63,726 bases of DNA, from the IMG/VR virus record IMGVR_UViG_3300027734_000066, positions 1 through 63,726 of that record. The stretch is one strand, 5' to 3'. The DNA is from a virus (lineage: Duplodnaviria; Caudoviricetes). The notes below the pieces were generated by a model. The model was not told the origin of the DNA and did no database searches. It saw only the letters and a program-made list of their open reading frames with translations. Below, in pieces: positions 22,923 through 63,726 of this stretch (position 1 is its first letter; each line of letters opens with the position of its first letter). The position numbers and the translations under genes were made by a program.

Positions 22923-22934
22923 TTGATCAACCCC

Positions 22935-22968: not shown

Positions 22969-22985
22969 CGTCTAAATTTTTTCGA

Positions 22986-23150: not shown

Positions 23151-23202
23151 TGTTATCTGCCGTATAACACCCGAAACCAGTTCCTAAAGCGGCGGCGAGT
23201 AC
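23151..23202 (+). repeat. 52-bp direct repeat copy B (contains palindrome copy 3)
   Basis: 45/52 identical to 22986-23037. Confidence 0.85.
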
Positions 23203-23204
23203 CA

Positions 23205-23690
23205 ACTGTTCGTTTTTGGCTTTGTTCTATTGTTCGTTTTTAGATGTTGTTCTACTGTTCGTTTTAATTAGTTTTACATTGTTCGATTCACTCAAATGGC
23301 TAACATGTTTTTTGTAACGGCTAATGTTCGTTTTTACCCCCTAATGTTCCGCAATGTTCCTGCAATGTTCGTTTTCGTAAGAACATTATAAAACTGCATT
23401 GGATGTCAATTGATGCACTGATATGAGAGACAGAATAAAATATCTTGTTTATTAGATAATAAGATAATAGATAGATAGATAGTTTGTTTGTAATGTTCTT
23501 TTTTAGGAAAAGAGTCCGAAGGTATAAATTGTCCAGCCAGCTTTTTTGCCCAAGAATTTAAAAAGTTGCGACGTGTTCCAAAAAGGTCGGGGTATGTTTA
23601 AAAACACGGTACTTCCAGAACATCGTGGTACATCAAGGACTTGCATAGCTACATTACAAGAACATTTACCTTTCTAAAGAACACTTCACA
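23205..23690. repeat. TGTTC/GAACA iteron-like cluster around an AT-rich core; candidate replication origin
   Basis: At least ten TGTTC in 23207-23370, inverted GAACA copies at ~23381 and 23618-23683, AT-rich (AGAT)n tract 23450-23485, no ORF. Confidence 0.55.
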
Positions 23691-23726
23691 ATACCTAATA
23701 ACACACCACAATCAAGCACCAAACAC

Positions 23727-23755
23727 TTGACTTAGACAGTTCATTATGTTATACT
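23727..23755 (+). promoter_or_regulatory. Early sigma70 promoter
   Basis: TTGACT-N17-TATACT with extended TG; shares AAACACTTGACTTAGA with the 24482 promoter. Confidence 0.8.
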
Positions 23756-23805
23756 ATAGTCTGTTGGTTGATAAAGTGTTCTGAGGGTTCAAAACCACCA
23801 ACAAT

Positions 23806-23822
23806 GTTATACGCCGTATAAC
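23806..23822. promoter_or_regulatory. 17-bp palindrome, copy 4
   Basis: GTTATAC-GCC-GTATAAC just before the RBS of 23845. Confidence 0.8.
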
Positions 23823-23844
23823 AACTTATCAGGAGATACATCAC

Positions 23845-24087
23845 ATGGCAAAGCCCCGTCGTACCCCCGACCGTGAACACCACGCCCATCAACTTGTTTG
23901 CACCTCATGCTACGCACAGCGCGTGGCCCCGATGCGTTCTCGCCTCGGCTACACCACATGCCTCGATTGCGGTGAGACTGCCGCCAAAAAGGTCAAGCAC
24001 ACAGTTGCGCCCATGAACAAGTCAAACTACATGCTGTTCACCGATGCGACCCTGCTCAAACAACTTAACCCCAAGCGCACTACGTGA
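23845..24087 (+). CDS. C4 zinc-finger protein (TraR/DksA-type finger)
   Basis: CTSC...R..LGYTTCLDCG; AGGAG RBS. Confidence 0.65.
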   Translation: MAKPRRTPDREHHAHQLVCTSCYAQRVAPMRSRLGYTTCLDCGETAAKKVKHTVAPMNKSNYMLFTDATLLKQLNPKRTT

Positions 24088-24111
24088 CGCTAACAACCAA
24101 GGAGATAGAAG

Positions 24112-24288
24112 ATGAACGTATTTATTGACCTCAACAAAGTTTTCACAGAAGCCATGAAACACATGCAAGAACCGAACGACCTGCGCTGGTCTATTGGTAT
24201 GGCACTTCAAGAACTGTATGGGGATGAGTGGGTGTATGAACTTCAACGAGCTATGACTTACGAGTTTGAAAAGGGGCAGACCAAATGA
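24112..24288 (+). CDS. Small hypothetical protein, 58 aa (below ORF-track cutoff)
   Basis: AAGGAG RBS; MNVFIDLNKVFTEAM...; ATGA overlap with next ORF. Confidence 0.6.
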   Translation: MNVFIDLNKVFTEAMKHMQEPNDLRWSIGMALQELYGDEWVYELQRAMTYEFEKGQTK

Positions 24289-24461
24289 AACGACTCATCA
24301 CACTTCTCGCCCAAGCCGTTCTTGGTGCGGCGTTCGTTGCGTTTATTGCGTTCATGCTCATCGAGTGGGCATCGGGGTGCGGTGAACACTACGTGGACTC
24401 CAAGGGCGTGACGCACATCAACGAGTGCACATTCACAACACAAAAGAAAGGTACAAACTGA
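24285..24461 (+). CDS. Small membrane protein, possible lipoprotein, 58 aa
   Basis: MKRLITLLAQAVLGAAFVAFIAFMLIEWASGCGEHYVDSKG: basic N-terminus, hydrophobic stretch, ASGC. Confidence 0.6.
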   Translation: MKRLITLLAQAVLGAAFVAFIAFMLIEWASGCGEHYVDSKGVTHINECTFTTQKKGTN

Positions 24462-24481
24462 TATAAAACACCACAAAACAC

Positions 24482-24510
24482 TTGACTTAGATACTTTGAC
24501 GTGATACAAT
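24482..24510 (+). promoter_or_regulatory. Early sigma70 promoter
   Basis: TTGACT-N17-TACAAT with extended TG. Confidence 0.8.
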
Positions 24511-24558
24511 AGACCCATCGACTCGGAGATCGCCTTGTCGGTAAACAAACCAAACCAA

Positions 24559-24575
24559 GTTATACGCCGTATAAC
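24559..24575. promoter_or_regulatory. 17-bp palindrome, copy 5
   Basis: GTTATAC-GCC-GTATAAC before the RBS of 24593. Confidence 0.8.
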
Positions 24576-24592
24576 AAACAAAGGAAACGAAG

Positions 24593-25492
24593 ATGACAAA
24601 CTCAATGACGGGCACCACGGTGCCATCCATCTCAACAGCGGCAATGCTCGTTGAATTATCCATCGGCACATGGACTGGCCGCAAACTCGACAAACGTGCA
24701 TCGCAGGATGTCACGTCACAGAACAACGCCGACAAGGGCGTGGCCAACGTGCACAAGAAACTTCTCGGCGACTGCGCCGAATTGGATGCGGTGCAGAAGT
24801 TCACAGCCAATGCACGTAACGTGCACTACGCTTGCACCATGCCGTGGTCTGACACAGGTCTGCGCTTGTTGCCAACGACCCAGTATTTTAAATACCATGC
24901 AGAGATGACCTCACTGCAAAGTGAGTACCAACGGCTTGTGCAAGCGTTCTTGGATGCGTACTCATGGGAGATACAGAACAGCCAACTCAAACTGGGCGCA
25001 CTGTTCAACGCTGACGAGTACCCGACCGCTGACTCGCTGACCTCGAAGTTTCGGTTCAAGATGAATTACATGCCGCTCCCCGACTCAAACGACTGGCGCG
25101 TGTCCATCGGTGACGAGACCGAGCAAGCATTGCGTTCTCAGTACGAGGGTTACTACGCGACCCAACTCCAAGCGGCCATGGGTGACGTGTGGCGCAGAGC
25201 GCACGATGCGCTGACAAAGATGTCAGAGCGCCTCGATTACGCTGACGACATGACCCGCAAGGTGTTCAGAGATTCACTCGTGTCAAACGTGACGGACATC
25301 ATCGAGTTACTCGGTGCATGCAACGTGACAGGCGACCCCGTGATGATGGCGGCACAGCGCGACTTGGACGAAGCCATGCGTGGTATCACACCTGATGCCC
25401 TGCGTGAAGACCCCTACCTCCGCGCTGAGACTCGCCGCAAGGTCAACGAGGTTCGCAAGACCATCGACAACCTGCCAAGCCTCGGCTTCTAA
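24593..25492 (+). CDS. DUF3150-like protein of the MoxR/vWA module
   Basis: AMLVELSIGTWTGRKLDK...TMPWSDTGLRLLP...FRDSLV; precedes AAA and vWA genes. Confidence 0.65.
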   Translation: MTNSMTGTTVPSISTAAMLVELSIGTWTGRKLDKRASQDVTSQNNADKGVANVHKKLLGDCAELDAVQKFTANARNVHYACTMPWSDTGLRLLPTTQYFKYHAEMTSLQSEYQRLVQAFLDAYSWEIQNSQLKLGALFNADEYPTADSLTSKFRFKMNYMPLPDSNDWRVSIGDETEQALRSQYEGYYATQLQAAMGDVWRRAHDALTKMSERLDYADDMTRKVFRDSLVSNVTDIIELLGACNVTGDPVMMAAQRDLDEAMRGITPDALREDPYLRAETRRKVNEVRKTIDNLPSLGF

Positions 25493-25509
25493 GTTATACG
25501 CCGTATAAC
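25493..25509. promoter_or_regulatory. 17-bp palindrome, copy 6
   Basis: GTTATAC-GCC-GTATAAC directly after the stop codon. Confidence 0.8.
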
Positions 25510-25548
25510 AACTCAACCCCAACCTAAACCTCAACAGGAAAATTTATC

Positions 25549-32437: not shown

Positions 32438-32459
32438 CAACATAACAGGAGAAACGAAG

Positions 32460-32963
32460 ATGACAGAAGAAGCAACACTACGCCACAACTGGCGCAACGT
32501 AATAGAGACCGAGGGTGGGTACTGCCCCGTGTGTGATCGGTGGGGCAAGATCAACAAGGTCAAGCTGACTGGCGGCATGGCGCGTTCACTGGCATGGCTT
32601 GTGAGCATGTCAGCGGGGGCAGAGAACGGATGGGTCAACACACGTGACAACGTGCCACTGTTCATGTTGCGCTCAAACTCTATCGGGCACCTCAAGCATT
32701 GGGGCTTGGTGCAAGCACGTGAGCCCGAATCATCCAAGGTCAGGACAAGTGGCATTTGGAGAGCCACGTTAGATGGGCACGACTTTGTGCATGACCGACT
32801 GGTTGTGCCTACACATGTTTTTGTGTACAACGATGCCGTGGTGCGGCAGGGCACTGAGTTGGTGGGCATTGCGGATTGCTTCACCGAAGAATTTGATTAC
32901 CGCGAAGTGATGAATTCGTATTTCCCAACAACACAGGTGCAAGATGGACTTAATAACGATTGA
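32460..32963 (+). CDS. Hypothetical protein, CPVC + winged-helix-like
   Basis: GGYCPVCDRWGK, LKHWGLV, SGIWRAT. Confidence 0.7.
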   Translation: MTEEATLRHNWRNVIETEGGYCPVCDRWGKINKVKLTGGMARSLAWLVSMSAGAENGWVNTRDNVPLFMLRSNSIGHLKHWGLVQAREPESSKVRTSGIWRATLDGHDFVHDRLVVPTHVFVYNDAVVRQGTELVGIADCFTEEFDYREVMNSYFPTTQVQDGLNND

Positions 32964-34770
32964 CTTTGAAACGTACTACGACCGCGACTACTCGCTGTCG
33001 AAAATCACAACGGAAGAATACATACGCTCTGACATGTTTGAAGTCATCGGCGTAGGTGTGAAGATTAACAACCAAGAAACGGAGTGGGCAAGTGGAACAA
33101 ATAAACAAATCGGAGAGTGGCTTCAGAGCAATTTTGAATGGGAGCGGGGGTTTGTCTTGGCGCACAACACCCTTTTTGACGGGGCTATCCTGTCTTGGCG
33201 TTTCGGTATTAATCCTCGGGGTTGGCTTGACACTCTGTGCATGGGCCGTGCCCTTCACGGCGTGGAAGTTGGGGGTTCGCTTAAAGCTCTTACTGAGCGG
33301 TATGGGCTCGGGGAAAAAGGAACCGAAGTCGTTAACGCCCTCGGCAAAAGACGACTGAACTTCAGCGACGACGAACTCGCACGGTACGGTGACTACTGCA
33401 TCAACGATGTAGAACTCACCCACAAACTCTTTACCATCTTGGTAAAGGATTTTCCCAAGCAAGAACTGCGTGTGATTGATCAGACCCTGCGCATGTTCAT
33501 CGACCCCATACTCGAACTGGACGGCGACATGTTGCAACAACACCTCATCGGCATCAAGCAGATGAAGGAAGACCTGCTGACATCCTCGGGTGTGGACAAG
33601 GCTGAACTGATGAGCAATGAGAAGTTTGCTGAACTGCTCCGCTCGTTTGGTGTAGAGCCCCCGATGAAGACAAGCCCCGCCACGGGTAAGCAGACCTATG
33701 CGTTTGCCAAGAGTGACGAGGAGTTCAAAGCCCTTGCTGACCATGAAGATGTCAGGGTGCAGACACTTGTCGCCGCCCGCTTGGGCACCAAGTCAACGCT
33801 TGAAGAGACCCGCACCCAACGGTTCATTGACATCTCCAAGCGTGGCAAGTTGCCTGTACCGATTCGTTACTACGCCGCACACACTGGACGGTTCGGTGGG
33901 GACGACAAGATCAACATGCAGAACTTGCCAAGCCGTGGCGACAACGGCAACAAGCTCAAGAAGGCGATCATTGCGCCCGAGGGCTACACCATCATTGACG
34001 CTGACTCTGCACAGATCGAAGCGCGGGTGCTGGCGTGGCTGTCGGAACAGAATGACTTGGTAACAGCTTTTGCTGAGGGTAAGGACGTGTACAAGAAGAT
34101 GGCCTCGGCTATCTACGGCAAGCCCGAGTTTGAGATCAGCAAGGACGAGCGGTTCGTGGGTAAGACCACAATCCTTGGTGCAGGGTATGGCATGGGTGCC
34201 GTGAAGTTCCAAGCCCAACTCAAGACCTTTGGCGTGGAGGTGGACGTTGACGAAGCAAGACGCATCATTGACATTTATCGCCGCACCAACGATTCCGTGG
34301 TGAGGCTGTGGCGTCAGGCTCAGAACGCTCTTGTAAACATGTCACGTGGTGACCTCGCACCGCTTGGCCGGGCAGCCGTGCTTGAGGTGGTGCCCAGTGA
34401 GTCATCTATCCGCTTGCCCTCGGGTCTGCTGATGCGCTACGACGACTTGAAGTTTGACCAAACCGAGAAGGGTATCGAGTTCCATTACAAGACACGCAAG
34501 GGTCGCACCCGTATCTATGGCGGCAAGGTGATTGAGAACGTGTGCCAAGCCATTGCACGTTGCATCATTGCTGAGCAGATGCTAAAGATTGGTAAGCGAT
34601 ACAAGGTTGTGCTGACTGTGCATGACGCGATTGCTGTGTGCGTACCGGACGCGCAAGTTATACCCGCAACGCAGTACGTTGAGGAGTGCATGCGATGGGT
34701 GCCCGAGTGGGCAAAGGGTCTGCCTGTGAACTGTGAGTCAGGCAGTGGTAAATCTTATGGAGACTGCTAA
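32944..34770 (+). CDS. DNA polymerase family A with 3'-5' exonuclease
   Basis: Exo I IDFET, Exo II AHNTLFD, Exo III YCINDV; motif A DSAQIEAR, motif B RFVGKTTILGAGYGMG, motif C TVHD. Confidence 0.95.
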   Translation: MDLITIDFETYYDRDYSLSKITTEEYIRSDMFEVIGVGVKINNQETEWASGTNKQIGEWLQSNFEWERGFVLAHNTLFDGAILSWRFGINPRGWLDTLCMGRALHGVEVGGSLKALTERYGLGEKGTEVVNALGKRRLNFSDDELARYGDYCINDVELTHKLFTILVKDFPKQELRVIDQTLRMFIDPILELDGDMLQQHLIGIKQMKEDLLTSSGVDKAELMSNEKFAELLRSFGVEPPMKTSPATGKQTYAFAKSDEEFKALADHEDVRVQTLVAARLGTKSTLEETRTQRFIDISKRGKLPVPIRYYAAHTGRFGGDDKINMQNLPSRGDNGNKLKKAIIAPEGYTIIDADSAQIEARVLAWLSEQNDLVTAFAEGKDVYKKMASAIYGKPEFEISKDERFVGKTTILGAGYGMGAVKFQAQLKTFGVEVDVDEARRIIDIYRRTNDSVVRLWRQAQNALVNMSRGDLAPLGRAAVLEVVPSESSIRLPSGLLMRYDDLKFDQTEKGIEFHYKTRKGRTRIYGGKVIENVCQAIARCIIAEQMLKIGKRYKVVLTVHDAIAVCVPDAQVIPATQYVEECMRWVPEWAKGLPVNCESGSGKSYGDC

Positions 34771-38330: not shown

Positions 38331-38405
38331 AGAAGTTCGACAACGACTGGAGCGAGTGGGACACCCACTTCGCTCCAAGTTTGTTCGTCTGCGCTGGAGA
38401 ACGAA

Positions 38406-39947
38406 TTGGAAATCATTGACAACAAGGCTCTGTTGTTGACGTTGCGTAACCCGCATCGCGTCACTACAGTTATCCCTAAAAGCAGGGAACTCCCAAACAA
38501 CCAAGTGCTCGTGCACTGGGGGTTGGATGAGGCGCAAGTCCTCAAGAATCTGCGCGTGAAAAACGTGCCATCCCCCATCATGGGACGCTACGATTGGCCC
38601 GGCCAGTACAAGCCGTTTGACCATCAGAAGACAACAGCCGCATTCCTCACGATGAACCGCCGTGCGTTCTGCTTGAACGAGCAGGGCACAGGCAAAACAG
38701 GGTCAGTCATTTGGGCGGCAGACTACCTGCTGAAACAGAAACGCATTCGCAGGGTGCTGGTGATTTGCCCTCTGTCAATCATGGATTCAGCGTGGAGAGC
38801 CGACCTGTTCAAGTTCGCCATGCACCGATCAGTTGACATAGCGTACGGCTCAAAAGAAAAACGCAAGGCCATCATCAACGGCATTGCCGAGTTTGTGATC
38901 ATCAACTATGACGGCGTGGAGATTGTTGCCGAGGACATTGCCAAGGGTGGCTTTGATCTGATTGTGATTGACGAGGCCAACGCATACAAGAACGTACAGA
39001 CCAAGCGATGGAAGGTGCTGAACTCACTGGTCAAGGCTGAGACATGGCTTTGGATGATGACAGGCACCCCCGCCGCTCAGTCCCCGCTCGATGCGTACGG
39101 GCTTGCAAAATTAGTCAATCCACAGGGTGTCCCCAAGTTCTACACAACCTTCCGCGACATGGTGATGATCAAGCTAAACAACTTTCGTTGGCTTGCCAAA
39201 GAGACCGCCACACAGACCGTGTTTGAGTGTTTACAACCCGCCATCCGATACACCAAGGATGAGTGCCTTGACTTGCCTGAGATGACGTACGTTAAGCGCC
39301 GAGTCGAGTTGACAAAGCAACAGGAACGCTACTACGGCATGCTCAAGAGTCGCATGGTGGTGCAGGCCGCAGGGGAAGAGATTACGTCAGTTAACGCTGC
39401 CGTGAACATGAGCAAACTCCTGCAAATATCTTGTGGTGCGGTGTACTCCGATTCAGGCGAGACCTTGGAGTTCGACATCAAGAACCGCTACAACGTGCTG
39501 ACCGAGGTGATTGACGAGTCCAGTCAGAAAGTGCTCGTGTTCGTGCCGTTCAAGCATGTGATTAGCATCCTGACCGACAAACTCAATGCTGACGGATACA
39601 CGACCGAGGTGATCAGTGGGGACGTGCCCGTGCACAAGCGCACCGACATCTTTAATCGCTTCCAGACCGAGCCCGAGGGCACCAAGGTGCTTGTCATCCA
39701 ACCCCAAGCCGCCGCCCACGGCGTGACCCTCACAGCGGCCAATACCGTGGTGTGGTGGGGGCCGACATCCTCCCTTGAGACCTACGCCCAAGCCAACGCC
39801 CGAGTCCACCGTTCGGGTCAGCGTCACCCCTCCACAGTGGTACAACTGGTAGGTTCAGGTGTAGAAAGACACGTTTACAACTTATTGGATAATAAAATCG
39901 ACGTTCACTCAAAAATAGTTGATCTTTACAAAGAAATACTTGAATAA
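38406..39947 (+). CDS. SNF2-family helicase
   Basis: EQGTGKT, VIDEAN, MTGTP, HGVTLTAA, QANARVHRSGQ; TTG start. Confidence 0.9.
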   Translation: MEIIDNKALLLTLRNPHRVTTVIPKSRELPNNQVLVHWGLDEAQVLKNLRVKNVPSPIMGRYDWPGQYKPFDHQKTTAAFLTMNRRAFCLNEQGTGKTGSVIWAADYLLKQKRIRRVLVICPLSIMDSAWRADLFKFAMHRSVDIAYGSKEKRKAIINGIAEFVIINYDGVEIVAEDIAKGGFDLIVIDEANAYKNVQTKRWKVLNSLVKAETWLWMMTGTPAAQSPLDAYGLAKLVNPQGVPKFYTTFRDMVMIKLNNFRWLAKETATQTVFECLQPAIRYTKDECLDLPEMTYVKRRVELTKQQERYYGMLKSRMVVQAAGEEITSVNAAVNMSKLLQISCGAVYSDSGETLEFDIKNRYNVLTEVIDESSQKVLVFVPFKHVISILTDKLNADGYTTEVISGDVPVHKRTDIFNRFQTEPEGTKVLVIQPQAAAHGVTLTAANTVVWWGPTSSLETYAQANARVHRSGQRHPSTVVQLVGSGVERHVYNLLDNKIDVHSKIVDLYKEILE

Positions 39948-39997
39948 GTGGCAAAACGCCACTATAATAAGAACCCCAACAACAACTGGAGAACGAA

Positions 39998-40414
39998 GTG
40001 ACAGACGAAGCAACCCCCGCAACCCCTGCCGTAGCCCCCGAGAAGCTGGTCAAGGTGTACCTCAAGATGAAGGCCAAGCACGATGAGATGCGTGTCGCCT
40101 ACGAGACTGAGGAGAAGCAACTTAAAGCGCAGATGGACAAAGTGAAGTCCGCCCTTTTGGAGTTCTGTAAAGAGCAAAACGTAGACAGCGTACGTACAGG
40201 CGAAGGCTTGTTTTACCGCACCACCAAGGTGGACTATTGGACAAACGACTGGGAGTCCATGCACAAGTTCATCATTGAACACAATGCGCCGCAGTTACTG
40301 CACCAGCGCCTTCACCAAACGAACCTCAAAGAGTTCCTTGAGGCCAACCCTGACACGCTACCACCGGGACTCAATGTGGATAGCGAATACACCATAACCG
40401 TACGGAGAAAATGA
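39998..40414 (+). CDS. Conserved replication-module coiled-coil protein
   Basis: GTG start; KLVKVYLKMK...DSVRT...PPGLN. Confidence 0.75.
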   Translation: MTDEATPATPAVAPEKLVKVYLKMKAKHDEMRVAYETEEKQLKAQMDKVKSALLEFCKEQNVDSVRTGEGLFYRTTKVDYWTNDWESMHKFIIEHNAPQLLHQRLHQTNLKEFLEANPDTLPPGLNVDSEYTITVRRK

Positions 40415-40677
40415 TGAGTGAACCTTTTGTGCCAATCGAAGACTTGGCCAAACAGTTTACGGTTTCGGTATCGACTGTTCGTGCATGGGTACGACAGGGC
40501 TACATCCCCAAAGACACGTATCTAAAGATCGGTAACACATACCGCTTTAACGTACCTGCGGTGGTGAAAGCCCTGTCAAGCGTACCCAAGGACGAACCGG
40601 AAGCACCAAAAGCCGTAGACCCCAAACTGCCTGTTCAACTTGAATTGGCATTCAATAACCCTGACGAAGATATTTAA
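40411..40677 (+). CDS. Excisionase/MerR-type HTH protein
   Basis: IEDLAKQFTVSVSTVRAWVRQGYIP...KIGNTYRF. Confidence 0.75.
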   Translation: MMSEPFVPIEDLAKQFTVSVSTVRAWVRQGYIPKDTYLKIGNTYRFNVPAVVKALSSVPKDEPEAPKAVDPKLPVQLELAFNNPDEDI

Positions 40678-40691
40678 CTGGAGAAACGAAG

Positions 40692-41636
40692 ATGAGTAAC
40701 GAAATGACCCTGTTTGGAAAACCCAACAACGCCGCCCTTGCTTTGCTGAGTGGTGTGGAGGACAGCCTGACAAGTACCCTTGCGGGTGGTGGCAGTGGCA
40801 ACAAACGCATCAGCATTGAAGGCGGTGCATTCCGCGAATACGTTGGCGGTAAAGAAGTTCGTGTGAGCGAGGAACGCTCCATGAAAGTCATCCTGATCAA
40901 CGCCGCACCTGTGTCGCGTATGTTTTTTGAGGGCACCTACGTCAAGGGTGCAAAGACCAAGCCCACATGCTGGTCGAGCGACACACAAAGCCCCGATACC
41001 GCTGTGCCCGAAGATCAGCGACAGGCAAAATTTTGCAAAGACTGCAAACAACACATCAAGGGTTCCGGTCAAGGCGACACCCGCGCATGCCGTTTTCAAC
41101 AACGTATTGCCGTGGCACTTGATGGCGAGTTGCACAAAGAAGCCGTGTACCAAGTCACACTGCCATCAACATCTGTGTTTGGCGATGCCGAGGGTAAGAA
41201 GATGCCATTGCAAGCCTATGGCCGTCACCTCAAGGCATACAACACTCCCGCGATTTCTATCGTGACCGAGATGCGTTTCGACATCGACAGCGCCACTCCC
41301 AAGTTGGTGTTCAGCCCTGTCCGTGCGCTTGAGGAAGAAGAACTCGCAACCGCAGTGAAGTTGCAAAATCATCCCGACACCATCAAGGCAATCACCTTGA
41401 ACGTATCTCAGATGGACGGCGTGATTCCTGCACCAAAGGGTACGTTGCCAATGGGTGAGTTGGCCAAGCAAGAAGATGGCCCTGCCTACGAGAAGATCGT
41501 TGCCAAGACTGCACCGAAAGCCGCAAAGGTTGAAGCTGAAGAAGTGGCTGAGCCGATCAAGGTTACCAAGAAGTCTGCACCTGCCGCTGAGTCGAAGTCT
41601 GAGTTGAGCGACATCGTTGGAGATTGGGACGACTGA
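40692..41636 (+). CDS. Single-stranded DNA-binding/annealing protein (putative)
   Basis: KRISIEGG, PTCWS, CKDC..GSG..RAC, acidic aromatic tail DIVGDWDD; followed by terminator. Confidence 0.65.
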   Translation: MSNEMTLFGKPNNAALALLSGVEDSLTSTLAGGGSGNKRISIEGGAFREYVGGKEVRVSEERSMKVILINAAPVSRMFFEGTYVKGAKTKPTCWSSDTQSPDTAVPEDQRQAKFCKDCKQHIKGSGQGDTRACRFQQRIAVALDGELHKEAVYQVTLPSTSVFGDAEGKKMPLQAYGRHLKAYNTPAISIVTEMRFDIDSATPKLVFSPVRALEEEELATAVKLQNHPDTIKAITLNVSQMDGVIPAPKGTLPMGELAKQEDGPAYEKIVAKTAPKAAKVEAEEVAEPIKVTKKSAPAAESKSELSDIVGDWDD

Positions 41637-41644
41637 TTTGTTTT

Positions 41645-41675
41645 AGGGTGGGGTCGCCCCCCACCCTTTCTTTTC
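41645..41675 (+). terminator. Rho-independent terminator
   Basis: AGGGTGGGG-TCGC-CCCCACCCT followed by TTCTTTT. Confidence 0.75.
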
Positions 41676-41707
41676 GGTTATCTCATTCACTCTAACAACT
41701 GGCGGCT

Positions 41708-44563
41708 ATGGAAACAAAAAAATTTCTGGAGTCGGTGCTGGGGGACGAAGGGTACTACTGCATATTTGCTTATCGGCTATCCGATGAACGCAAGGTGCAA
41801 AAGTTCTATGACAACCTTGATGCCGCAATCCATGCTGCTCACAATTTAGATGCTGAAGGGTATGACGCTTATTTTGCGTTGGGCACCTTTGACCAAGCTG
41901 GGTCGCGTAAGGCACCCAACGTAAAACAACTTAGATCATTCTTTCTTGACCTTGACTGTGGGCCAACAAAAGACTACGCGACACAGAGCGAAGCTCTTGC
42001 CGCATTACGCACGTTCTGTAAAGAACTCAAGCTACCGCGCCCGACCCTTGTAAATTCAGGACGTGGTATCCACGTGTATTGGCCGCTGACTGCTCCGGTT
42101 TCAAGGGAAGCATGGGTGCCTGTTGCCGAGCAATTCAAACGCCTGTGTACAAAGCATGGGATGCGCAATGACCCTGCCGTGCCAGCAGATGCGGCGCGTG
42201 TGTTGCGAGTGCCCAATACGCACAACCACAAGCCCGACCCCCCTGCCCCCGTGGTGATAGTGGGTGAAGCAGGTGCGGCAATTGAGTTTGATGTGTTCCG
42301 TGACTTGATGGGGGATGACTCATCAATCTTGGTGCCCCCAAAGAAGTACACACCAAGCCAGCAAGATGCCATGATGCAAGCCCTGTCGGGCAGTTTTGTG
42401 AGCCGCTTTAAGACTATCCTGATTAAGACCATGAGCGGCACTGGGTGCGAACAACTCAAAGAAGTTGTCAACAATCAGCCAAACATCTCCGAGCCTTTGT
42501 GGAGAGCAGGGTTGTCGATTGCCAAGTTCTGTGTTGACGGTGGTAAAGCAATCCACAAGATTTCTGCCAAGCACCCTGAGTACACACCCGAAGGGACTGA
42601 GCAGAAGGTTGACCTGATTAAAGGCCCATACCTGTGCACACGTTTTGATGAGTATCGTGCAGGTGTCTGCCGAGAGTGCAAGCACTGGGGCAAGATTAAG
42701 TCACCGATCTCCCTCGGGCGTGAGGTAGAGGAAGCTGACGAGTCCGACAACATTGTCATTCAAAAACCACTGGACGTGACTGCGGCTACGCCAATTCGAT
42801 ACGTCATCCCCAAGTACCCGCACCCGTACTTTAGGGGTAAGAGTGGTGGGGTGTTCAAGCATTCCAAGAACCAAGAGGGCGAAGACAAAGATGTGATGGT
42901 CTATTTCAATGATTTATACGTCATACGGCGCGTCAAAGACCCCGAAGCAGGTGAGTCGTTGGTGATGCGCTTGCACTTGCCCAAGGACGGCGTACGTGAA
43001 TTCACGTTGCCATTAACTGCTGTGGGTACGAAGGATGAGTTTCGCAAACAACTTGCGGCACAGGGTGTGGCAGTCCTGAACGTACAAGAACTGATGGAGT
43101 ACACGATGAGATGGGTAAACGAGTTACAGTTTAATTCTGAAGCCGACGAAGCATGTCGGCAATTTGGGTGGAAGGATGACTCACACGAGTCGTTCGTTGT
43201 CGGCAACATGGAAGTTTTCAAAGACCGTGTTGAGGTAAGTTCACCATCCGCCGCTACCGTGGGGCTGTTTCCAATCTTCAAAGCCAAAGGCACGTTGGAG
43301 AAGTGGAAGCAGACTATGGAGTTTTACAACCAACCGGACATGGAGTTGCACCAATTCATGTTTGGGCTATCGCTGGGCTCTGTCCTGATGGAGTTTCAAC
43401 CGATCAACGCCGCCGCCTTTCACGCATGGAGCAAGGGCTCCGGTTTGGGCAAAACCACAGCCATGTACGCAGGTGCATCTATTTGGGGTGACCCCGATCT
43501 GTTGGTGATGCAAGAGCGTGACACGTTCAACTCAAAGATGAACCGTGCCGAGGTGTACAAGAACATCGTCTGCTACATGGACGAGATGACCAACACCAAG
43601 CCGCAAGACTTGTCTGACTGGGCGTATCAACTGCCAAGCGGCCTACAACGCAACCGCATGGGGCCAAAAGGCAACGTGGAGCGCGTACGGGGTAAGCCTT
43701 GGAAGACTTTGTTTGGCACCACAGGCAACACATCAATGCTTGAGCGTATCGCACTGTTCAAGGCTCTGCCACAAGCAGAAGCCCAGCGTGTGTTGGAGTA
43801 CCGAGTCGAACCTGTGAAGTTTGCTACCAAGTCCGAGACCGATGTTTTTAGCACCGACATCAAGGACAACTTTGGGCATGCGGGGGTGCTCTACATCCAA
43901 TACATCTTGAACAACTTGGATGCGGTCAAAGAACTTGCCATGACGGTGCAACGCAAACTTGATGCGGCGTCGAGCCTGTCTGCTGAGAATCGCTACTGGT
44001 CTGCCTTGGCTTCACGCACCATCGCAGGTTTGATGTTGGCCAAGAAAGCTGGCTTAATTACTTGGCAGATTGCGCCGATTGTGCAGTGGATTGTCAAAGT
44101 GATGGCCGAGGCCAAAGCCATGGTGGGCGAGATGAACGTTAATGTAGAGGCTCAACTGACCGACTACATGGCGGAGAACTACAACAACATGCTCCGTATC
44201 AAGTCAACGGATGACGCACGTAATACCGCCGGGGTGCTTGACAAGATCATTGTGCCTGACGGCTCCCCCCGTGGGCAGTTTGTTGCGCGGTATGAGTACG
44301 ATGTGAAGAAGCTGTACCTGCTGATCAAGCCGCTGAAGTCATGGTGCGGCAAGCAACAGATCAACTACGCTGGGTTTGTTGACGGCTTGAAAACGGGAAG
44401 CACCAAGGCAATCAAAGCCAAGGTTCGACTCGGTAAGGGCACCCACATCAACATGCCCCCTACCGATGTTTTGGTTCTGGACTGCACAGGGTTTATGGAC
44501 GATGAAACTGAGCAAGCTCTGGCAACAACCGCCGCGCTGTTCGAGAAACAGAGTCAGGATTGA
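41708..44563 (+). CDS. Primase-helicase (AEP/RepB-like primase + DUF927 helicase)
   Basis: FFLDLDCG, VNSGRGIHVYW, RVLRVP; Walker A GSGLGKTT, Walker B YMDE. Confidence 0.9.
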   Translation: METKKFLESVLGDEGYYCIFAYRLSDERKVQKFYDNLDAAIHAAHNLDAEGYDAYFALGTFDQAGSRKAPNVKQLRSFFLDLDCGPTKDYATQSEALAALRTFCKELKLPRPTLVNSGRGIHVYWPLTAPVSREAWVPVAEQFKRLCTKHGMRNDPAVPADAARVLRVPNTHNHKPDPPAPVVIVGEAGAAIEFDVFRDLMGDDSSILVPPKKYTPSQQDAMMQALSGSFVSRFKTILIKTMSGTGCEQLKEVVNNQPNISEPLWRAGLSIAKFCVDGGKAIHKISAKHPEYTPEGTEQKVDLIKGPYLCTRFDEYRAGVCRECKHWGKIKSPISLGREVEEADESDNIVIQKPLDVTAATPIRYVIPKYPHPYFRGKSGGVFKHSKNQEGEDKDVMVYFNDLYVIRRVKDPEAGESLVMRLHLPKDGVREFTLPLTAVGTKDEFRKQLAAQGVAVLNVQELMEYTMRWVNELQFNSEADEACRQFGWKDDSHESFVVGNMEVFKDRVEVSSPSAATVGLFPIFKAKGTLEKWKQTMEFYNQPDMELHQFMFGLSLGSVLMEFQPINAAAFHAWSKGSGLGKTTAMYAGASIWGDPDLLVMQERDTFNSKMNRAEVYKNIVCYMDEMTNTKPQDLSDWAYQLPSGLQRNRMGPKGNVERVRGKPWKTLFGTTGNTSMLERIALFKALPQAEAQRVLEYRVEPVKFATKSETDVFSTDIKDNFGHAGVLYIQYILNNLDAVKELAMTVQRKLDAASSLSAENRYWSALASRTIAGLMLAKKAGLITWQIAPIVQWIVKVMAEAKAMVGEMNVNVEAQLTDYMAENYNNMLRIKSTDDARNTAGVLDKIIVPDGSPRGQFVARYEYDVKKLYLLIKPLKSWCGKQQINYAGFVDGLKTGSTKAIKAKVRLGKGTHINMPPTDVLVLDCTGFMDDETEQALATTAALFEKQSQD

Positions 44564-44765
44564 CGACCTTGCACCCGATGGGGTGCGTATCGTTGTTCGC
44601 TGGGACAAGTTCCCAGCGGGTGCCTCTGTGTTCATCCCTTGCGTGAATACGCTGGAGCTTGTACGTCAGATTCATCAGATAACAAGTCAGTGGGAGTGGG
44701 TTGTTCACTATCGTCCCGGCATTGAAGATGGGCGCTGGGGGGTTCGCATTTGGAGACGCTTGTGA
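44502..44765 (+). CDS. Small hypothetical protein after primase; start uncertain
   Basis: WDKFPAGASVFIPC...GVRIWR. Confidence 0.6.
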   Translation: MKLSKLWQQPPRCSRNRVRIDDLAPDGVRIVVRWDKFPAGASVFIPCVNTLELVRQIHQITSQWEWVVHYRPGIEDGRWGVRIWRRL

Positions 44766-44771
44766 TAGTAT
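44743..44771 (+). promoter_or_regulatory. Putative promoter for candidate sRNA
   Basis: TTCGCA-N17-TAGTAT with extended -10 TG. Confidence 0.45.
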
Positions 44772-44776
44772 TACCG

Positions 44777-44848
44777 CGACAGCTTGCCTGTCACTTCGTT
44801 CTCCTTTGAAAGAGTTTAACCCCCGCCGTAAAAAGCGGGGGTTTTTTT
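44777..44848 (+). ncRNA. Candidate trans-acting anti-RBS small RNA
   Basis: 5' hairpin GACAG/CTGTC, CTTCGTTCTCCTTT complementary to the early-gene RBS motif, then intrinsic terminator. Confidence 0.55.
44818..44848 (+). terminator. Rho-independent terminator at the convergence of the two arms
   Basis: AACCCCCGC-CGTAAAAA-GCGGGGGTT followed by T run on + strand. Confidence 0.85.
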
Positions 44849-44849
44849 A

Positions 44850-47800
44850 TCAGTCCAACAGCCCGTTGTCGTACTCGGACGCATTCTCTAACAACTCAGG
44901 ACGGAGCTTCTTGTTTAGAGTCACACCGTGATACATCTCTTGCGATGTTTTCATGTGTTGAGCCATCGAGTTCTGGATAGTCTCGGGCGTAATTGCCGCA
45001 GTGGGATGCGCTCTGTTGAACTTCATGATGTCCTCAATTGCATCACTCATGCCATCGGAGTCGCCGTTTCGTGCGGCAATGTAGTAATCGCGCAACATCT
45101 TGGTACGTTCCTTGGTGGCACGACGCTCAATGTTTTTGAGGGACGCATTGATCTCCAACTGGCGGGTGTACTCGGCAGGTGCAAACCCAAACGCTTGTGC
45201 AAATGCGTTGGCCGTGCTTATTTCCCCAACTATTGGGTCACCGCGCAGGGTGTTGGCACCCTCGGTTGCGAAGCGAATACCCTTAAACCCGTTGGCAATA
45301 CCTGCGGGGAGCATGCGCTCCAGACCACGTTCAGTCTCACCCTCACTGATCAGCTTGGCACCTTGTTGTAGTCGGTCGGCTACGCCGTAGACTGGGCCAC
45401 CCATGAGTTGCAAGAACGCCAGCACAGCGTTGTCTTGCTCACGGTATCCGGTGCTGTTGATCAGCAGGTCAGACAGGCCGATACGGTTGGCGATGGCCGT
45501 ACCAGTCAGGTAGTTGACCGCGCCATTGAACAGACCCTCGCCAAGATACTTACGTACGGCGGTCTCAGCGTCATCCTCATCATCACCCTTGAACAAGTTG
45601 TAGACAGCGGCCAAGATGCCAAACATGGGCAGACCCTGCACCCCAGCCATCATGCCAGCGGAGGCGTAGATACCAAGAATTTGGCGCATAGCGGCATCGC
45701 GGACTTTCTTGTCCTCGGACTTCATGGCTTCACGGGCCGTCTTGAACATCATGTAGTACATGGAAACACCGTACCGCTTGTACATAAACATGATCTTGCC
45801 AATTGAATTCTTGGCCAGCAAAGGTGCGCTACCTGCGGACGCGCCGCCGTTCATCAGTTCAGTGGTTTGGATTGCGCGTTTGGCCGCTTCGGTGCGTGAT
45901 GCACTGTCAATCTTCTCACCCTCCTTGGCCATCCGGTCAAGCTCAAGTTCGTAGGATGCGATCAGGGAAACTTGGCGGTTCATGCGCTCGCCATGGTGGA
46001 AGATGAAGCCAGACCATGCGTTCACACGGTTCAAAGGCGTGGACTTCTCGTCCATGTCCAAGATGTCATGCGTCATCGAGCGGCTGAGCAAACCGTAGTC
46101 CTCGGCGATCTGCGACAACTCCTTGAGGCGCTTGACGTTCTCTGGCACCCCTTTGGCGTCAAAGTCGTAGTTGTCCAGCGAGAAGCCAGCCCTGACCTCA
46201 ATCTTGGATTTGCCGTCAGCGGTGGGCACCGTCATCTCGGCGTTGCGCTTGAGGCCGCTACCAAAGAACAGACGGGTGGCCGAGCCAATGGCTTTCATAG
46301 TTTCGGGATAGCCGTACTTACCACCAAGGTAAGGCATCATCACCAGTGGCACCTGTGACATGTTTACCAGTGCAGAGGATACGTTGAACCCCAGCGTCCA
46401 GTTAAACGCAGTGGAGGTCATAATTTTTGACCATGGGGAAATGTTGGGGCTGACCAGCGTTTGGATGTGGCTGTTCAACTCATCGGCCAGACCACGGGCC
46501 GCCTCGGTGTTATTTGTTGTCTTAACGTGTTCGTTGATCTCATCACGCAGTTGGTACATTTTGCCGCTGTACTCAAGGTTGGCCAGTTGGTGCGACATAC
46601 CCATGGAGCGTGTGAAGAACGCAGAGGTTGCATCGAAGCTAAAGCCGGGTGTGTTTTTACGCTTGCGGAACGCTTGAGCAAACGATGACTCAGGTAGCGT
46701 TGACAAGAACGTACGCATGATCTCATCGGTGACTTCTGGATCAACTTTGTTGGCTTCAAGCGTACGCAAGATAGAGTTCACAAAGGATGTTGGAGGTGCA
46801 TCCTTGTACGTTTTATTGGAACTGCCAGTAAAGCGCGTAATGTTTTTTGCGCCCCCTTCTTTTTCCAACTCTTTGATGGCACGCTCCCGCTCAACCGAAG
46901 TCTCGTAGTGTTCAACAAAATGCTCTACGTTGCCATCGCGCCCTTTGCCGTCGTATGCCAAGCGATAGTCACCATTACGTGTCAGGGGGAAGTACGGCTC
47001 AATCTTGCCCTTGGTGGCAAGGCGTTGGTAGATTTCAGTCTTGAGCTTTTTGGCATCTTCCTTGTCTTTCACAGAGGAGTCGATGCGGTTAAACATCAGA
47101 TCAAGCAGGTCTTCGTAGGTCTTGGCGTACGTGTCGCGCATCTGTTTATAGACGCTCTGGCCCTCATCTTTGAGCGCGGCCCACTGAGGTTGCAACTCAT
47201 CCCACACCTGTTGTTTATCTTTACCGCTCTCGGACTGCTTGCCCTTGTAGTCGGCGCGGGGCTTGGACGGGTCAACCTGCTCCAGCGTGCTGGTGGCAAT
47301 GACATCGTTCAGGATGGCTTCTTTCTCAGGGTTGCCTTTGAGCCAGTTCTGGATGCGCTTCATGGTGGCTTCGGTAGCGCGTTTGCGCTTGTCAATTGAA
47401 CCGTTCCACAGCTTCTCCAACTCGTCAAGGCGCGGAGCCATTGGAATGTCTTTCTTGGCAACCTCAACCAGTGCATTGAGCGGTAGGCTACGGCGCACCA
47501 ACTTCTGGACAGCGGAAGGCACACCCTCGCGGAACAACTCATAGATGCCGCCAACGATCTTGTTATCCAGCGCAGGCATTGACAGGATTCGGTCGTCCAG
47601 AGTCTTGAAGACTGCGGAGCTTTTACCCAACAACGATGCCGAGAACAACGAGCCTGCCTCACGAGATTCAGGTGCAGGCGACAAGATGGTGTTGATCAAC
47701 GAATCAGAGGCGTCGAGTGCGGAGCCCATACCCTTGGTTTCTTTACCCATGATTGACCGCACAAAGTTGCGGATGGCGTGCATGAAGCGTTGCCATGCAG

Positions 47801-62885: not shown

Positions 62886-63726
62886 CGACGGCCATCCGAA
62901 CGCATGTCAATACGGGGCGAGCCCAACTGCCAGTTCACGCCCAGTCCAGTGGACTCAAACTTGATGGACATCTGGCGACCACGCACCCGAGTAAAAATCT
63001 GCCCGGTGAACTCTTCTACCGGCAAGGTGGCAATCCGTGTGACGGTCGCAAAACTATCGTTGGCCACAGAGTGATTAGCGTTTGTCGCTGAGTTGACCGA
63101 ATACCCAGAGCCAGAATTTTTCAACGGCAGCAGGTACATAGTGGCGCTGGGCGGGGTTGCCGTAGAGCCTTCAAACGTAACGTCGGGCAATACGCGCCAC
63201 ACAAACATAAAGTTGTGACCATCATCCAAGTCAAACTGCGAGGAGATGATAGATGCTGTGATTGGCAATGTGGTGCCTGTGGCGTTGTCGTCCAGCCCTT
63301 GCTCGTGGTTCACAAGGTTATTGTAGTACGTAGCAGCCAGCGGGTAGTCACGCAAGCCAGAATCCAGCCATGCAGTGCGAGCCATATTGCCGTAGTACCA
63401 CACGTTTTCCACGTAGTTGTAGACCACGTATTTATCGATGTCAGTAGAGCCTTCGGAGCAATAGAACCACCAGACTTCGTTGAAACCTTCGTTGGTGCCC
63501 GAGCACACCTGCGCGTACTGCGAGGTGTTGATGTCCTCAAACACGTAGCGGCGCAGGTCGCAGTTCAGTGTCTGCGTGCGGCCATCGTATTTGTAGAACT
63601 TGTCTTTGCCCATCCAGTAAGCCACGCCCGTGGCGTACGACACGGCGTTTTGCCCGACGATGGAGATGTTTTCACCCATAAGCTGCGCACCCCAGACAAT
63701 TGGTGCGCCCACGTATTGGAGTGAAT
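62882..63726 (-). CDS. Tail hub / stabilisation protein, 3' part (continues from 1-1349)
   Basis: YWMGKDKFYKYDG, FNEVWWFY, RTAWLD, TRVRGRQ...DGRR; in frame across the junction. Confidence 0.8.
   Translation of the reverse strand, partial: SLQYVGAPIVWGAQLMGENISIVGQNAVSYATGVAYWMGKDKFYKYDGRTQTLNCDLRRYVFEDINTSQYAQVCSGTNEGFNEVWWFYCSEGSTDIDKYVVYNYVENVWYYGNMARTAWLDSGLRDYPLAATYYNNLVNHEQGLDDNATGTTLPITASIISSQFDLDDGHNFMFVWRVLPDVTFEGSTATPPSATMYLLPLKNSGSGYSVNSATNANHSVANDSFATVTRIATLPVEEFTGQIFTRVRGRQMSIKFESTGLGVNWQLGSPRIDMRSDGRR
63639..63726. repeat. Terminal overlap (right copy)
   Basis: Matches 1-88, with a 44-nt identical core GAGATGTTTTCACCCATAAGCTGCGCACCCCAGACAATTGGTGC. Confidence 0.95.

What the first reader, a model, noticed from the sequence alone, without database searches (positions are those of the whole stretch)
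44743..44848. Candidate phage sRNA antisense to a shared ribosome-binding motif: a one-RNA translational off-switch for early/replication genes
Seen: the short gap ending the early arm holds a promoter-like TTCGCA-N17-TAGTAT, a 5' hairpin, CTGTCACTTCGTTCTCCTTT (44788-44807) and a terminator whose U-tract is on the + strand. Bases 44788-44804 are the exact 17-nt reverse complement of the RBS+start of gene 39998 (GGAGAACGAAGTGACAG, 39988-40004). The same stretch matches 10 nt at the helicase RBS (GGAGAACGAA, 38396) and pairs with one bulge to AAAGGAAACGAAG (before 24593, 28082, 30784) and GGAGAAACGAAG (before 32460, 40692); at 32460 pairing extends over ATGACAG. Known: hairpin + seed + terminator is the usual layout of base-pairing sRNAs. 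Inference: the RNA builds up and silences early/middle translation. Caveats: one 17-nt inverted match in 64 kb is not improbable alone, so the case rests on location and multiple targets; on the minus strand the site reads as RBS + a 7-codon ORF (MTGKLSR).
Basis: partly seen in the sequence, partly recalled or inferred. Interest (0 to 1): 0.88.

Follow-up and report, generated by a model that had tools for sequence, protein, structure and literature searches.

The report
Conserved phage small RNA against start sites
At the end of this uncultivated phage's replication genes sits a small, conserved RNA-gene-like unit whose exposed stretch is the mirror image of the ribosome-landing sites of several of the phage's own early genes, so it probably acts as an RNA brake on their translation, though no transcript has been seen.

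Summary
Window 44761-44848 (+) holds an extended -10 promoter (TGTGATAGTAT), a 5' hairpin, the stretch CTGTCACTTCGTTCTCC and a strong U7 terminator. That stretch is the exact reverse complement of the SD+start of gene 39998.

A 17-nt inverted match alone is weak: 14% of simulated windows have one. Relatives carry the case. TRTGATAnnnT is kept in 45 of 47 related loci. Both hairpins covary. In 22 of 22 distinct close-clade operons the longest complement of the element lies on a start region.

The conserved core (CTTCGTTCTCC) matches the SD+spacer motif shared by several early genes. It exceeds CTCC-anchored shuffles in four genomes (P<=0.011). The gene-specific part is compensated in only one lineage. 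In the most distant clades only the anti-SD CTCC survives.

By folding energy three starts stand out: 39998, 32460 (just before the DNA polymerase) and 24593. The helicase and the other listed targets do not.

Best reading (0.55): a ~71-nt sRNA at the operon's 3' end that blocks these start sites. It works like OppZ/CarZ and phage P1 c4, but belongs to no Rfam family.

No expression data exist and the host is unknown. The scan noted the same element before in related genomes.

The parts
44743..44748 (+). -35-like hexamer TTCGCA, inside the 3' end of the small ORF; weak
   Evidence: Read. It matches 4 of 6 consensus positions and lies 17 nt upstream of TAGTAT. It is coding sequence, so its conservation says little.
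44761..44771 (+). Extended -10 promoter TGTGATAGTAT (TRTGn + TAnnnT); the TGA at 44763-44765 is the ORF's stop codon
   Evidence: TGTGATA and the last T are invariant in 28 of 28 aligned distinct relatives. TRTGATAnnnT is present in 45 of 47 loci and 34 of 36 distinct sequences. The motif is kept although the last codon differs, TTG/CTG/GTG versus GTA.
44778..44848 (+). Predicted ~71-nt small RNA, from the inferred start about 7 nt after the -10 to the U-tract
   Evidence: It folds at -25.2 kcal/mol with z = -3.0. It matches no Rfam family at gathering score. The 5' and 3' ends are inferred, not observed.
44778..44792 (+). 5' hairpin GACAG-CTTGC-CTGTC
   Evidence: All cells are paired in the relatives, with changes on both sides and G-U pairs that fit the + strand. 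The arms are 0.94-0.95 conserved and the loop 0.59. The hairpin is absent in L013 and L035.
44788..44804 (+). 17-nt exact complement of the start region of gene 39998; the conserved core seed CTTCGTTCTCC is 44794-44804
   Evidence: Searches confirm the match. The core is kept across the close clade, with a one-T insertion allele. In the predicted fold the anti-SD UCCUUU sits in a loop.
44818..44848 (+). Intrinsic terminator: 9-bp G+C-rich stem and T7, shared with the primase operon
   Evidence: Listed. Covariation was counted. A T-run of at least 6 is present in 38 of 47 loci. No T-tract follows the stem on the minus strand.
39940..39968 (+). Conserved sigma-70 promoter TTGAAT-N17-TATAAT at the helicase 3' end; it drives the operon whose first start region is the main predicted target
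   Evidence: It matches 10 of 12 consensus positions. TTGnnn-N17-TAnnnT is present in 56 of 58 loci.
39988..40004 (+). Predicted target 1: SD + spacer + GTG + 4 nt of gene 39998-40414 (138 aa)
   Evidence: Exact 17-nt complement. Cofold ddG is -27.7 against shuffles of -10.8 +/- 3.4. The same start region is kept in relatives even where the first gene differs.
32448..32466 (+). Predicted target 2: start region of the 167-aa gene that overlaps the DNA polymerase gene (32944-34770)
   Evidence: GGAGAAACGAAGATGACAG pairs as 12+6 nt with one bulge. ddG is -26.4. It ranks in the top two of all early start regions in three genomes.
24580..24599 (+). Predicted target 3 (weaker): start region of the 299-aa gene at 24593
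   Evidence: ddG is -20.7. AAAGGAAACGAAGATGACA is read.
38396..38408 (+). Helicase start region GGAGAACGAATTG: a 10-nt exact complement, but not favoured by energy
   Evidence: The match is. ddG is -4.7, within the background.

Best explanation
Window 44761-44848 (+) encodes a small base-pairing RNA of about 71 nt at the very end of the replication (primase) operon.

Shown by sequence and comparison:
- a conserved extended -10 promoter that overlaps the stop codon of the last ORF;
- a covarying 5' hairpin;
- a conserved pyrimidine-rich seed, CUUCGUUCUCC;
- a covarying intrinsic terminator with a U-tract on the + strand only.

The seed is the complement of the SD+spacer motif GGAGAA(A)CGAAG. 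A subset of the phage's early and replication genes use that motif, all on the same strand.

Inferred:
- The RNA is made from its own promoter, processed from the operon's 3' end, or both.
- It pairs with these start regions. The best fits are the first cistron behind promoter 39940, the cistron coupled to the DNA polymerase, and the gene at 24593.
- Pairing blocks ribosome loading and may bring polarity or decay of the downstream cistrons.

Because the RNA sits at the 3' end of one of its target operons, it would give negative feedback or timed shut-off of replication functions.
For: 1. Promoter. TGTGATA...T is invariant in 28 of 28 distinct aligned relatives with primase identity from 99% down to 60%. 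TRTGATAnnnT is in 45 of 47 loci, including the 51-53% clade, where a different last codon gives the same letters. Three of the five best early promoter-like sites of this phage also carry TG before the -10.

2. RNA structure. The two helices are 93.2% paired, with 26 double-change cells against 5.4 in shuffles (0 of 500 shuffles reach it). Slid controls give 39-54% paired. Arms, seed, stems and T-run are conserved (0.91-0.97). Loop, spacer and linker are not (0.59-0.72).

3. Targets in relatives. In 22 of 22 distinct close-clade operons of about 5 kb, the longest exact complement of the element lies on an SD-start region (10-18 nt; 9 of 22 reach 17 nt or more). L020/L021 carry a compensated change: the start region has GTG->ATG, the element has CAC->CAT, and the match is again 17 nt exact.

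4. Own versus foreign pairing. For 12 clade representatives the mean duplex energy is -19.4 for own pairs and -14.2 for foreign pairs (permutation p = 5e-5).

5. Shared motif. Start regions holding an exact complement of 9 nt or more number 3/35 (window), 5/29, 7/28 and 3/48 (69% clade). CTCC-anchored shuffles give means of 0.15-0.23 (P <= 0.011). The 69% clade has a different seed (GGUCUCUCUCC) and a different start-region flavour (GGAGAGACC).

6. Energy. Cofold ddG is -27.7, -26.4 and -20.7 for 39998, 32460 and 24593, against shuffles of -10.8 +/- 3.4. The same two genes rank top in three genomes.

7. Minus-strand mini-ORF. It is not conserved: there is no start codon in L029, L033 or L036.
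Against: - No transcript has been observed, and the host is unknown.
- The promoter scores only 8 of 12 on the simple consensus and was not listed. That call did list a minus-strand promoter-like site at 44794->44767.
- Among lineages with an ATG-type first start region, only L020/L021 are compensated. L024 and L223 carry an A-C mismatch. L199, L204 and L230 keep only the 10-nt core.
- The T-insertion allele does not track the A-insertion in the start regions.
- In 11 of 12 more distant combinations the longest exact complement is not on a start region.
- The 53% clade genome has 0 of 31 start regions with 8 nt or more and no favourable ddG. Its 3' hairpin lacks a U-tract.
- L049 and L050 lack the -10 motif.
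- At ddG <= -15 the number of start regions is not above shuffles: 7 of 60 shuffles reach it.
- The three close genomes are not independent samples, and my gene calls are crude.
- Two copies of a DNA motif evolving in concert would also give the compensated change.
Confidence: 0.55

Rival explanations
1. The unit is only the 3' untranslated end and terminator of the primase operon. The start-region-like stretch is an inverted relic of the phage's mobile promoter/start-site cassettes, or it acts only in cis by pairing the 3' end with the 5' start region of the same long mRNA. No separate small RNA is made.
For: - The element shares the operon's terminator.
- Near relatives carry three different first genes behind the same start region, and the motif is repeated at several genes. 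This suggests recombination at these cassettes.
- The -35 is weak, and the promoter was not listed.
- L049 and L050 keep CTCC but no -10 motif.
Against: - The letters TRTGnTAnnnT are conserved across clades whose surrounding non-coding sequence cannot be aligned, and with a different last codon.
- The hairpin starts about 7 nt after the -10 in several clades.
- Seed conservation against a variable linker argues against a relic.
- An internal terminator at 41645-41667 lies between the 5' start region and the 3' end.
- Cis and trans action are not exclusive.
Confidence: 0.2
2. The repeated about 17-bp sequence is a DNA site, such as an operator of a phage regulator (for example the 88-aa HTH protein at 40411) or a recombination boundary. 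It is present downstream of two promoters in opposite orientation, and the copies evolve in concert.
For: - Both exact copies lie 10-30 bp downstream of promoter-like sites.
- The L020/L021 double change is what concerted evolution of two copies of one site would give.
- No wobble-type (G-U) differences between seed and start region were seen.
Against: - The sequence is not a dyad.
- The third good copy (32448) has no promoter-like site nearby.
- All direct copies sit exactly at SD-to-start position.
- What is conserved across clades is the anti-SD core plus spacer, which tracks each clade's start-region flavour.
Confidence: 0.08
3. The functional strand is the minus strand. Late transcripts read through the hairpin, which has no U-tract in that direction, and carry a start-region mimic. 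The mimic would load ribosomes on a mini-ORF or titrate a factor that binds start regions.
For: - On the minus strand the site reads AAAGGAGAACGAAGTG, a perfect copy of this phage's early start region.
- No T-tract follows the stem on the minus strand.
- A minus-strand promoter-like site was listed.
Against: - The mini-ORF and its start codon are not conserved.
- The conserved -10 letters fit the + strand only.
- G-U pairs in the hairpins would be A-C on the minus strand.
Confidence: 0.07
4. The match is chance, sitting beside an ordinary bidirectional terminator.
For: 13.7% of simulated windows have an exact inverted 17-mer. Any anti-SD-like CTCC will pair with many ribosome-binding sites.
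Against: The element is conserved and covaries in relatives. The top match lies on a start region in 22 of 22 operons. The enrichment exceeds CTCC-anchored shuffles in four genomes.
Confidence: 0.05

Closest known systems
OppZ and CarZ of Vibrio cholerae: autoregulatory sRNAs from operon 3' ends (Hoyos et al. 2020, eLife, PMC7398697; abstract and outline read)
   Same: The RNA sits at the 3' end of an operon and shares its terminator. It is complementary to a start region inside the same operon, so it would give negative feedback. For OppZ the abstract reports that a translation block leads to Rho-dependent termination, a plausible route here too.
   Different: - Per the abstract, OppZ and CarZ are cut out by RNase E. 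Here a conserved extended -10 promoter suggests independent transcription; processing is not excluded.
- This one is phage-encoded.
- It is also complementary to start regions in other operons (32460, 24593).
- Nothing here has been tested experimentally.
c4 antisense RNA of phages P1 and P7 (as described in the review PMC12197685, section 7 read)
   Same: It is a phage-encoded RNA that pairs in trans with complementary sequences around a ribosome-binding site of a phage mRNA and blocks translation. Specificity comes from sequences that differ between related phages.
   Different: - c4 controls the antirepressor in temperate phages' immunity. Here the targets are replication-module genes, and no lysogeny genes were seen near the element.
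- No match to Rfam C4 or any other family at gathering score.
- The position is at the operon's 3' end.
Betaproteobacteria toxic small RNA, Rfam RF02278 (expression in Burkholderia cenocepacia noted in PMC4603805, one passage read)
   Same: Same size class (about 60-70 nt) and layout: a CUCCU-type anti-SD shown in the loop of a small hairpin, followed by a G+C-rich terminator with a long U-tail. The full-length alignment to the model covers positions 1-64 of 64.
   Different: - The score of 30.8 bits is below the gathering score of 50. Relatives score 31.7 and 25.8, so it is not a member.
- The match rests mostly on the terminator and CUCCU.
- According to that paper, the function of the Burkholderia RNAs in their own host is unknown.
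sar RNA of P22 and OOP RNA of lambda (review PMC12197685, section 2 read)
   Same: They are short phage RNAs that end at a terminator between convergent units and act by antisense pairing on a phage mRNA. sar blocks translation initiation of ant.
   Different: Those are cis-antisense RNAs transcribed from the strand opposite their target. Here the RNA and its targets are on the same strand, 4.8 to 20 kb apart.

Membership tests
Rfam RF02278 Betaproteobacteria toxic sRNA | Covariance-model score at or above the curated gathering score (50 bits) | tested here: not met
   The window scores 30.8 bits with E about 1e-4 over 201-301 nt searched, at 44789-44849 +. Nothing matched at gathering threshold over the whole window. 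Relatives L026 and L030 score 31.7 and 25.8 bits.
Rfam RF02837 anti-hemB (Burkholderia RNA 7) | Score at or above the gathering score (49.5 bits) | tested here: not met
   23.2 bits.
Rfam C4 antisense RNA (P1/P7 type) | Match to the family model | tested here: not met
   There was no match at gathering score in the window. C4 is not among the 17 matches with E <= 10 over 44650-44950.
Autoregulatory 3'-end-derived sRNA (OppZ/CarZ kind) | Lies at the 3' end of an operon and shares its terminator | tested here: met
   The element starts 1 nt after the stop of the last + strand ORF and ends at the only strong + strand terminator.
Autoregulatory 3'-end-derived sRNA (OppZ/CarZ kind) | Base-pairs with a start region of its own operon | tested here: met
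   Prediction only. There is a 17-nt exact complement and ddG of -27.7. The top match lies on a start region in 22 of 22 close-clade operons.
Autoregulatory 3'-end-derived sRNA (OppZ/CarZ kind) | Released from the mRNA by RNase E; Hfq-dependent; represses its operon | not testable with these tools
   No RNA data are available and the host is unknown. A conserved promoter suggests a different way of making the RNA.
Sigma-70 extended -10 promoter | TGn directly upstream of a TAnnnT hexamer, conserved in relatives | tested here: met
   TGTGATAGTAT is read. The key letters are invariant in 28 of 28 aligned relatives and present in 45 of 47 loci. Promoter activity itself was not tested.
Intrinsic (Rho-independent) terminator | G+C-rich stem-loop followed by a U-tract on the transcribed strand | tested here: met
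   One search lists 9 pairs, 7 of them G-C, followed by T7. Covariation was counted.

The most novel reading that the evidence does not exclude
The phage marks a regulon of early and replication genes with a dedicated SD+spacer 'address', GGAGAA(A)CGAAG. One small RNA carrying the exact complement acts as a global translational off-switch, an RNA counterpart of a RegA-type repressor.

Two natural alleles of the seed exist, with and without one U. They would shift the RNA's preference between the two classes of address.

Late transcripts may read through the one-directional terminator. If so, they would form a perfect 71-nt sponge for the RNA and couple the early-late switch to RNA-RNA titration.
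Probability: 0.22. Interest if true: 0.82.

Novelty: new variant of a known kind. Interest (0 to 1): 0.62.

Why it matters
Few base-pairing RNAs are known that control a phage's own genes. Those covered by the one review read here (PMC12197685, sections 2 and 7) mostly concern the lysis-lysogeny choices of temperate phages.

This is a conserved RNA at the end of a replication operon that targets that operon's first start site and the start site coupled to the DNA polymerase. It would be a post-transcriptional feedback or timing device for phage DNA replication, in a widespread uncultivated phage group.

The case is also directly testable. The natural allele pairs (GTG/CAC against ATG/CAT; with and without the extra U) are ready-made compensatory mutants for reporter assays.

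Tried and rejected
- RNA evidence. The look-up of sequencing runs (kind rna, window 39800-45300) listed no RNA holder.
- Metagenome scan. I scanned metagenome contigs for the seed pattern, hoping for contigs that begin or end at the RNA's borders. There were 117 or more stretches and 80 loci returned. Only 5 of the 80 had the element's context, and none was informative about ends.
- Cultured relatives. blastn of 43500-46000 against the phage collection found no match. tblastn with the primase found Pseudomonas phage Rollin as best, at 29% identity. Rollin has no gap at the equivalent place. The genome-contig scan with the primase found no relative, so no host clue.
- Function of the 138-aa product of 39998. 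Pfam gave only sub-threshold Mu Gam / Gp157-like hits (E 0.011, 16 bits, cut-off 28). PDB sequence search found nothing. The AlphaFold model has pLDDT 73. Foldseek against the PDB gave nothing at E <= 0.001. The function stays unknown.
- Simple duplex-energy scan of the early arm. Many non-start sites scored as well as start sites, so it does not discriminate. I replaced it with exact-match counts and cofold with controls.
- Distant clade G003 (53%). No start region pairs with its element beyond the SD. The 7-nt GTGCAAG match that I first took for covariation is at chance level.
- int-alpA RNA. It was found before the primase of L036 but is not detectable in the window.
- Supplements of the papers were not opened, and no claim here rests on them.
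- I ran no search aimed at showing that such an RNA is unpublished. Searches returned no paper on this phage group.

Full report
**Setting**

The window is a whole virus record of 63,726 bases, estimated complete. Its genes form two arms. Plus-strand early and replication genes run from about 22.4 kb to 44,765. Minus-strand genes fill the rest.

The finding lies in the 84-nt gap where the arms converge.
- On the + strand, a PrimPol/DUF927 primase (41708-44563) and a small ORF end with TGA at 44763-44765.
- On the minus strand, a 2139-aa DarB-like/LPD39 protein ends at 44850.

**The observation**

The 17-mer is exact, at 39988 (+) and 44788 (-). The window has 5 exact inverted 17-mer pairs, four of them from a CAG-type repeat. 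In 300 simulated sequences 13.7% have at least one.

The simple promoter scan did not list the + strand promoter, which matches 8 of 12 positions. It listed a minus-strand look-alike instead.

**Relatives**

A scan of viral contigs with the primase gave 61 loci, from 99% down to 47% identity. The gap has the same layout in nearly all of them:
- stop codon,
- TAnnnT,
- a few bases,
- a hairpin,
- a pyrimidine stretch containing CTCC,
- a strong hairpin, usually with a T-run.

Counts:
- TRTGATAnnnT is in 45 of 47 loci that hold the gap (34 of 36 distinct sequences). L049 and L050 are the misses.
- CTCC is in 46 of 47.
- A T-run of at least 6 is in 38 of 47. The 51-53% clade has none.

In an alignment of 28 distinct sequences, TGTGATA and the last T of the hexamer are invariant. 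In the 51-53% clade the same letters arise from a different last codon (GTA TGA instead of TTG TGA). The nucleotides are therefore conserved, not the protein. These positions are exactly the ones that define an extended -10 promoter on the + strand.

The two hairpins are 93.2% paired. They show 26 double-change cells against 5.4 in shuffles (0 of 500 shuffles reach that). Slid controls are 39-54% paired. The few G-U pairs fit the + strand.

Within the 22 close-clade sequences the conservation is patchy in the expected way:

| Segment | Mean majority fraction |
|---|---|
| -10 | 0.93 |
| hairpin arms | 0.94-0.95 |
| seed | 0.91 |
| terminator stems | 0.95-0.97 |
| hairpin loop | 0.59 |
| spacer after the -10 | 0.67 |
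| linker | 0.72 |

The predicted RNA 44778-44848 folds at -25.2 kcal/mol with z = -3.0. UCCUUU sits in the loop of a weak middle hairpin.

**The target side**

A sigma-70 promoter, TTGAAT-N17-TATAAT at 39940-39968, overlaps the helicase 3' end. The pattern is kept in 56 of 58 loci. The first start region behind it is GGAGAACGAAGTGACAG.

Near relatives carry three different first genes behind this same start region.

In 22 of 22 distinct close-clade operons of about 5 kb, the longest exact complement of the gap element falls on an SD-start region:
- 17-18 nt in 9 operons,
- 13 nt in 7,
- 10-11 nt in 6.

In L007 and L011 the match is on the third gene's start. L029 (69% clade) also hits the third gene's start, with 11 nt. 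In the other 11 distant combinations the top match (7-12 nt) is not on an SD-start region.

**Covariation between element and start region**

- L020/L021 have GTG->ATG in the start region and CAC->CAT in the element. This restores a 17-nt exact match.
- The other ATG-type lineages are not compensated. L024 and L223 have one A-C mismatch. L199, L204 and L230 keep only the 10-nt core GGAGAACGAA, which matches both the first and the third gene's start.
- The one-T insertion allele of the element does not track the one-A insertion in the start regions.
- For 12 clade representatives, own pairs are more stable than foreign pairs: -19.4 against -14.2 kcal/mol, permutation p = 5e-5.
- Selection, if any, therefore acts mainly on the SD+spacer core, not on the gene-specific part.

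**One target or many**

AACGAAG occurs 13 times on the + strand, and 6 of those directly precede a start codon.

Exact complements of 9 nt or more to the single-stranded seed occur in these start regions:

| Genome | Start regions with >= 9 nt | Shuffle test |
|---|---|---|
| window | 3 of 35 | P <= 0.011 |
| G002 | 5 of 29 | P <= 0.011 |
| G001 | 7 of 28 | P <= 0.011 |
| G005 (69% clade) | 3 of 48 | P <= 0.011 |
| G003 (53% clade) | 0 of 31 | not shuffled |

The shuffles keep CTCC in place and give means of 0.15-0.23.

G005 has a different seed (GGUCUCUCUCC) and a different start-region flavour (GGAGAGACC). Foreign seeds fit worse across the two clades.

The window's own allele fits fewer of its start regions than the +T allele of relatives would: 3 against 10 of 35.

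By cofold energy with intramolecular structure counted, three of 35 start regions stand out:
- 39998 at -27.7,
- 32460 at -26.4,
- 24593 at -20.7.

Shuffles give -10.8 +/- 3.4. With CUCC fixed, 1 of 60 shuffles gives three or more sites at <= -20, and 7 of 60 match the count at <= -15.

The helicase (-4.7), 28082, 30784 and 40692 (-12 to -13) lie within the background.

The same two genes, the promoter-proximal cistron and the 167-aa gene that overlaps the DNA polymerase gene, rank first and second in three close genomes. These genomes are not independent.

**Other strands and other readings**

- The minus-strand mini-ORF is not conserved.
- A DNA-operator reading fits the double change. It does not fit the constant SD-to-start position of all direct copies, nor the lack of a promoter-like site near 32448.
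- A pure 3' UTR or relic reading does not explain the conserved promoter letters or the patchy conservation.
- Cis pairing within a long mRNA cannot be separated from trans action here.

**Comparison with known families**

Nothing reaches an Rfam gathering score. With a permissive threshold the best matches are:
- the Betaproteobacteria toxic sRNA: 30.8 bits against a cut-off of 50, full-length alignment, CUCCU in a hairpin loop plus terminator;
- anti-hemB: 23.2 bits.

Relatives give similar sub-threshold scores. This is a likeness of layout, not membership.

In mechanism the closest are the autoregulatory 3'-end sRNAs OppZ and CarZ (PMC7398697; abstract read) and the phage RNAs c4, sar and OOP (PMC12197685; sections 2 and 7 read). 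An earlier follow-up in this scan, on a related genome, reached a similar reading and named OppZ/CarZ. I took that as a lead and read the abstract myself.

**Verdict**

This is probably a real, conserved, phage-encoded base-pairing RNA against the phage's own start regions (0.55). Its best targets are the first cistron of its own operon and the cistron coupled to the DNA polymerase.

Existence of the RNA, the direction of its effect and the breadth of the regulon remain inferences.

Noticed in passing
L036:3915-3987 (+); window 41637-41707: In a 60%-identity relative, the gap before the primase matches Rfam RF02996 (int-alpA RNA) at 47.5 bits, above its gathering score of 35.8. The window's equivalent gap gives no Rfam match at E <= 1. 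It does hold a conserved terminator-like hairpin at 41645-41667.
   Followed up: partly
window 44466-44765 (+): The conserved small ORF after the primase overlaps the primase 3' end by 98 nt if it starts at ATG 44466. No ATG, GTG or TTG lies in frame near the primase stop. In about 50%-identity relatives an ATG sits right at the primase stop. The true start is unclear, and a frameshift fusion is possible.
   Followed up: no
window 39988-40414 and loci L001, L002, L010, L020: Near relatives carry three different first genes behind the same promoter and the same start region, GGAGAACGAA[G/A]TGAC. In L020 the start region is present twice, before two successive genes. This looks like gene exchange at a conserved start-site cassette.
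   Followed up: partly
window 1-88 and 63639-63726: The two ends of the record are a direct repeat of 88 nt at 91% identity (family D2). This may be an assembly overlap of a circular or permuted genome built from mixed variants.
   Followed up: no
window 22277-25516: Six copies of a palindrome-bearing 26-nt repeat (GTTATAC-N3-GTATAAC) lie in the early control region (family D1). Tandem TGTTCGTTT repeats lie at 23205-23288 (family D8).
   Followed up: no
loci L041-L047, L051, L057: In the 51-53% clade the 3' hairpin of the gap element has no T-run on either strand. No start region pairs with the element beyond the SD. The element may work differently there.
   Followed up: partly
window 39998-40414 (+): The 138-aa product of the main predicted target has only sub-threshold Pfam likeness to Mu Gam / Gp157-type proteins. 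PHROGs labels its family 'minor head protein'. The model (pLDDT 73) found no fold match at E <= 0.001.
   Followed up: yes
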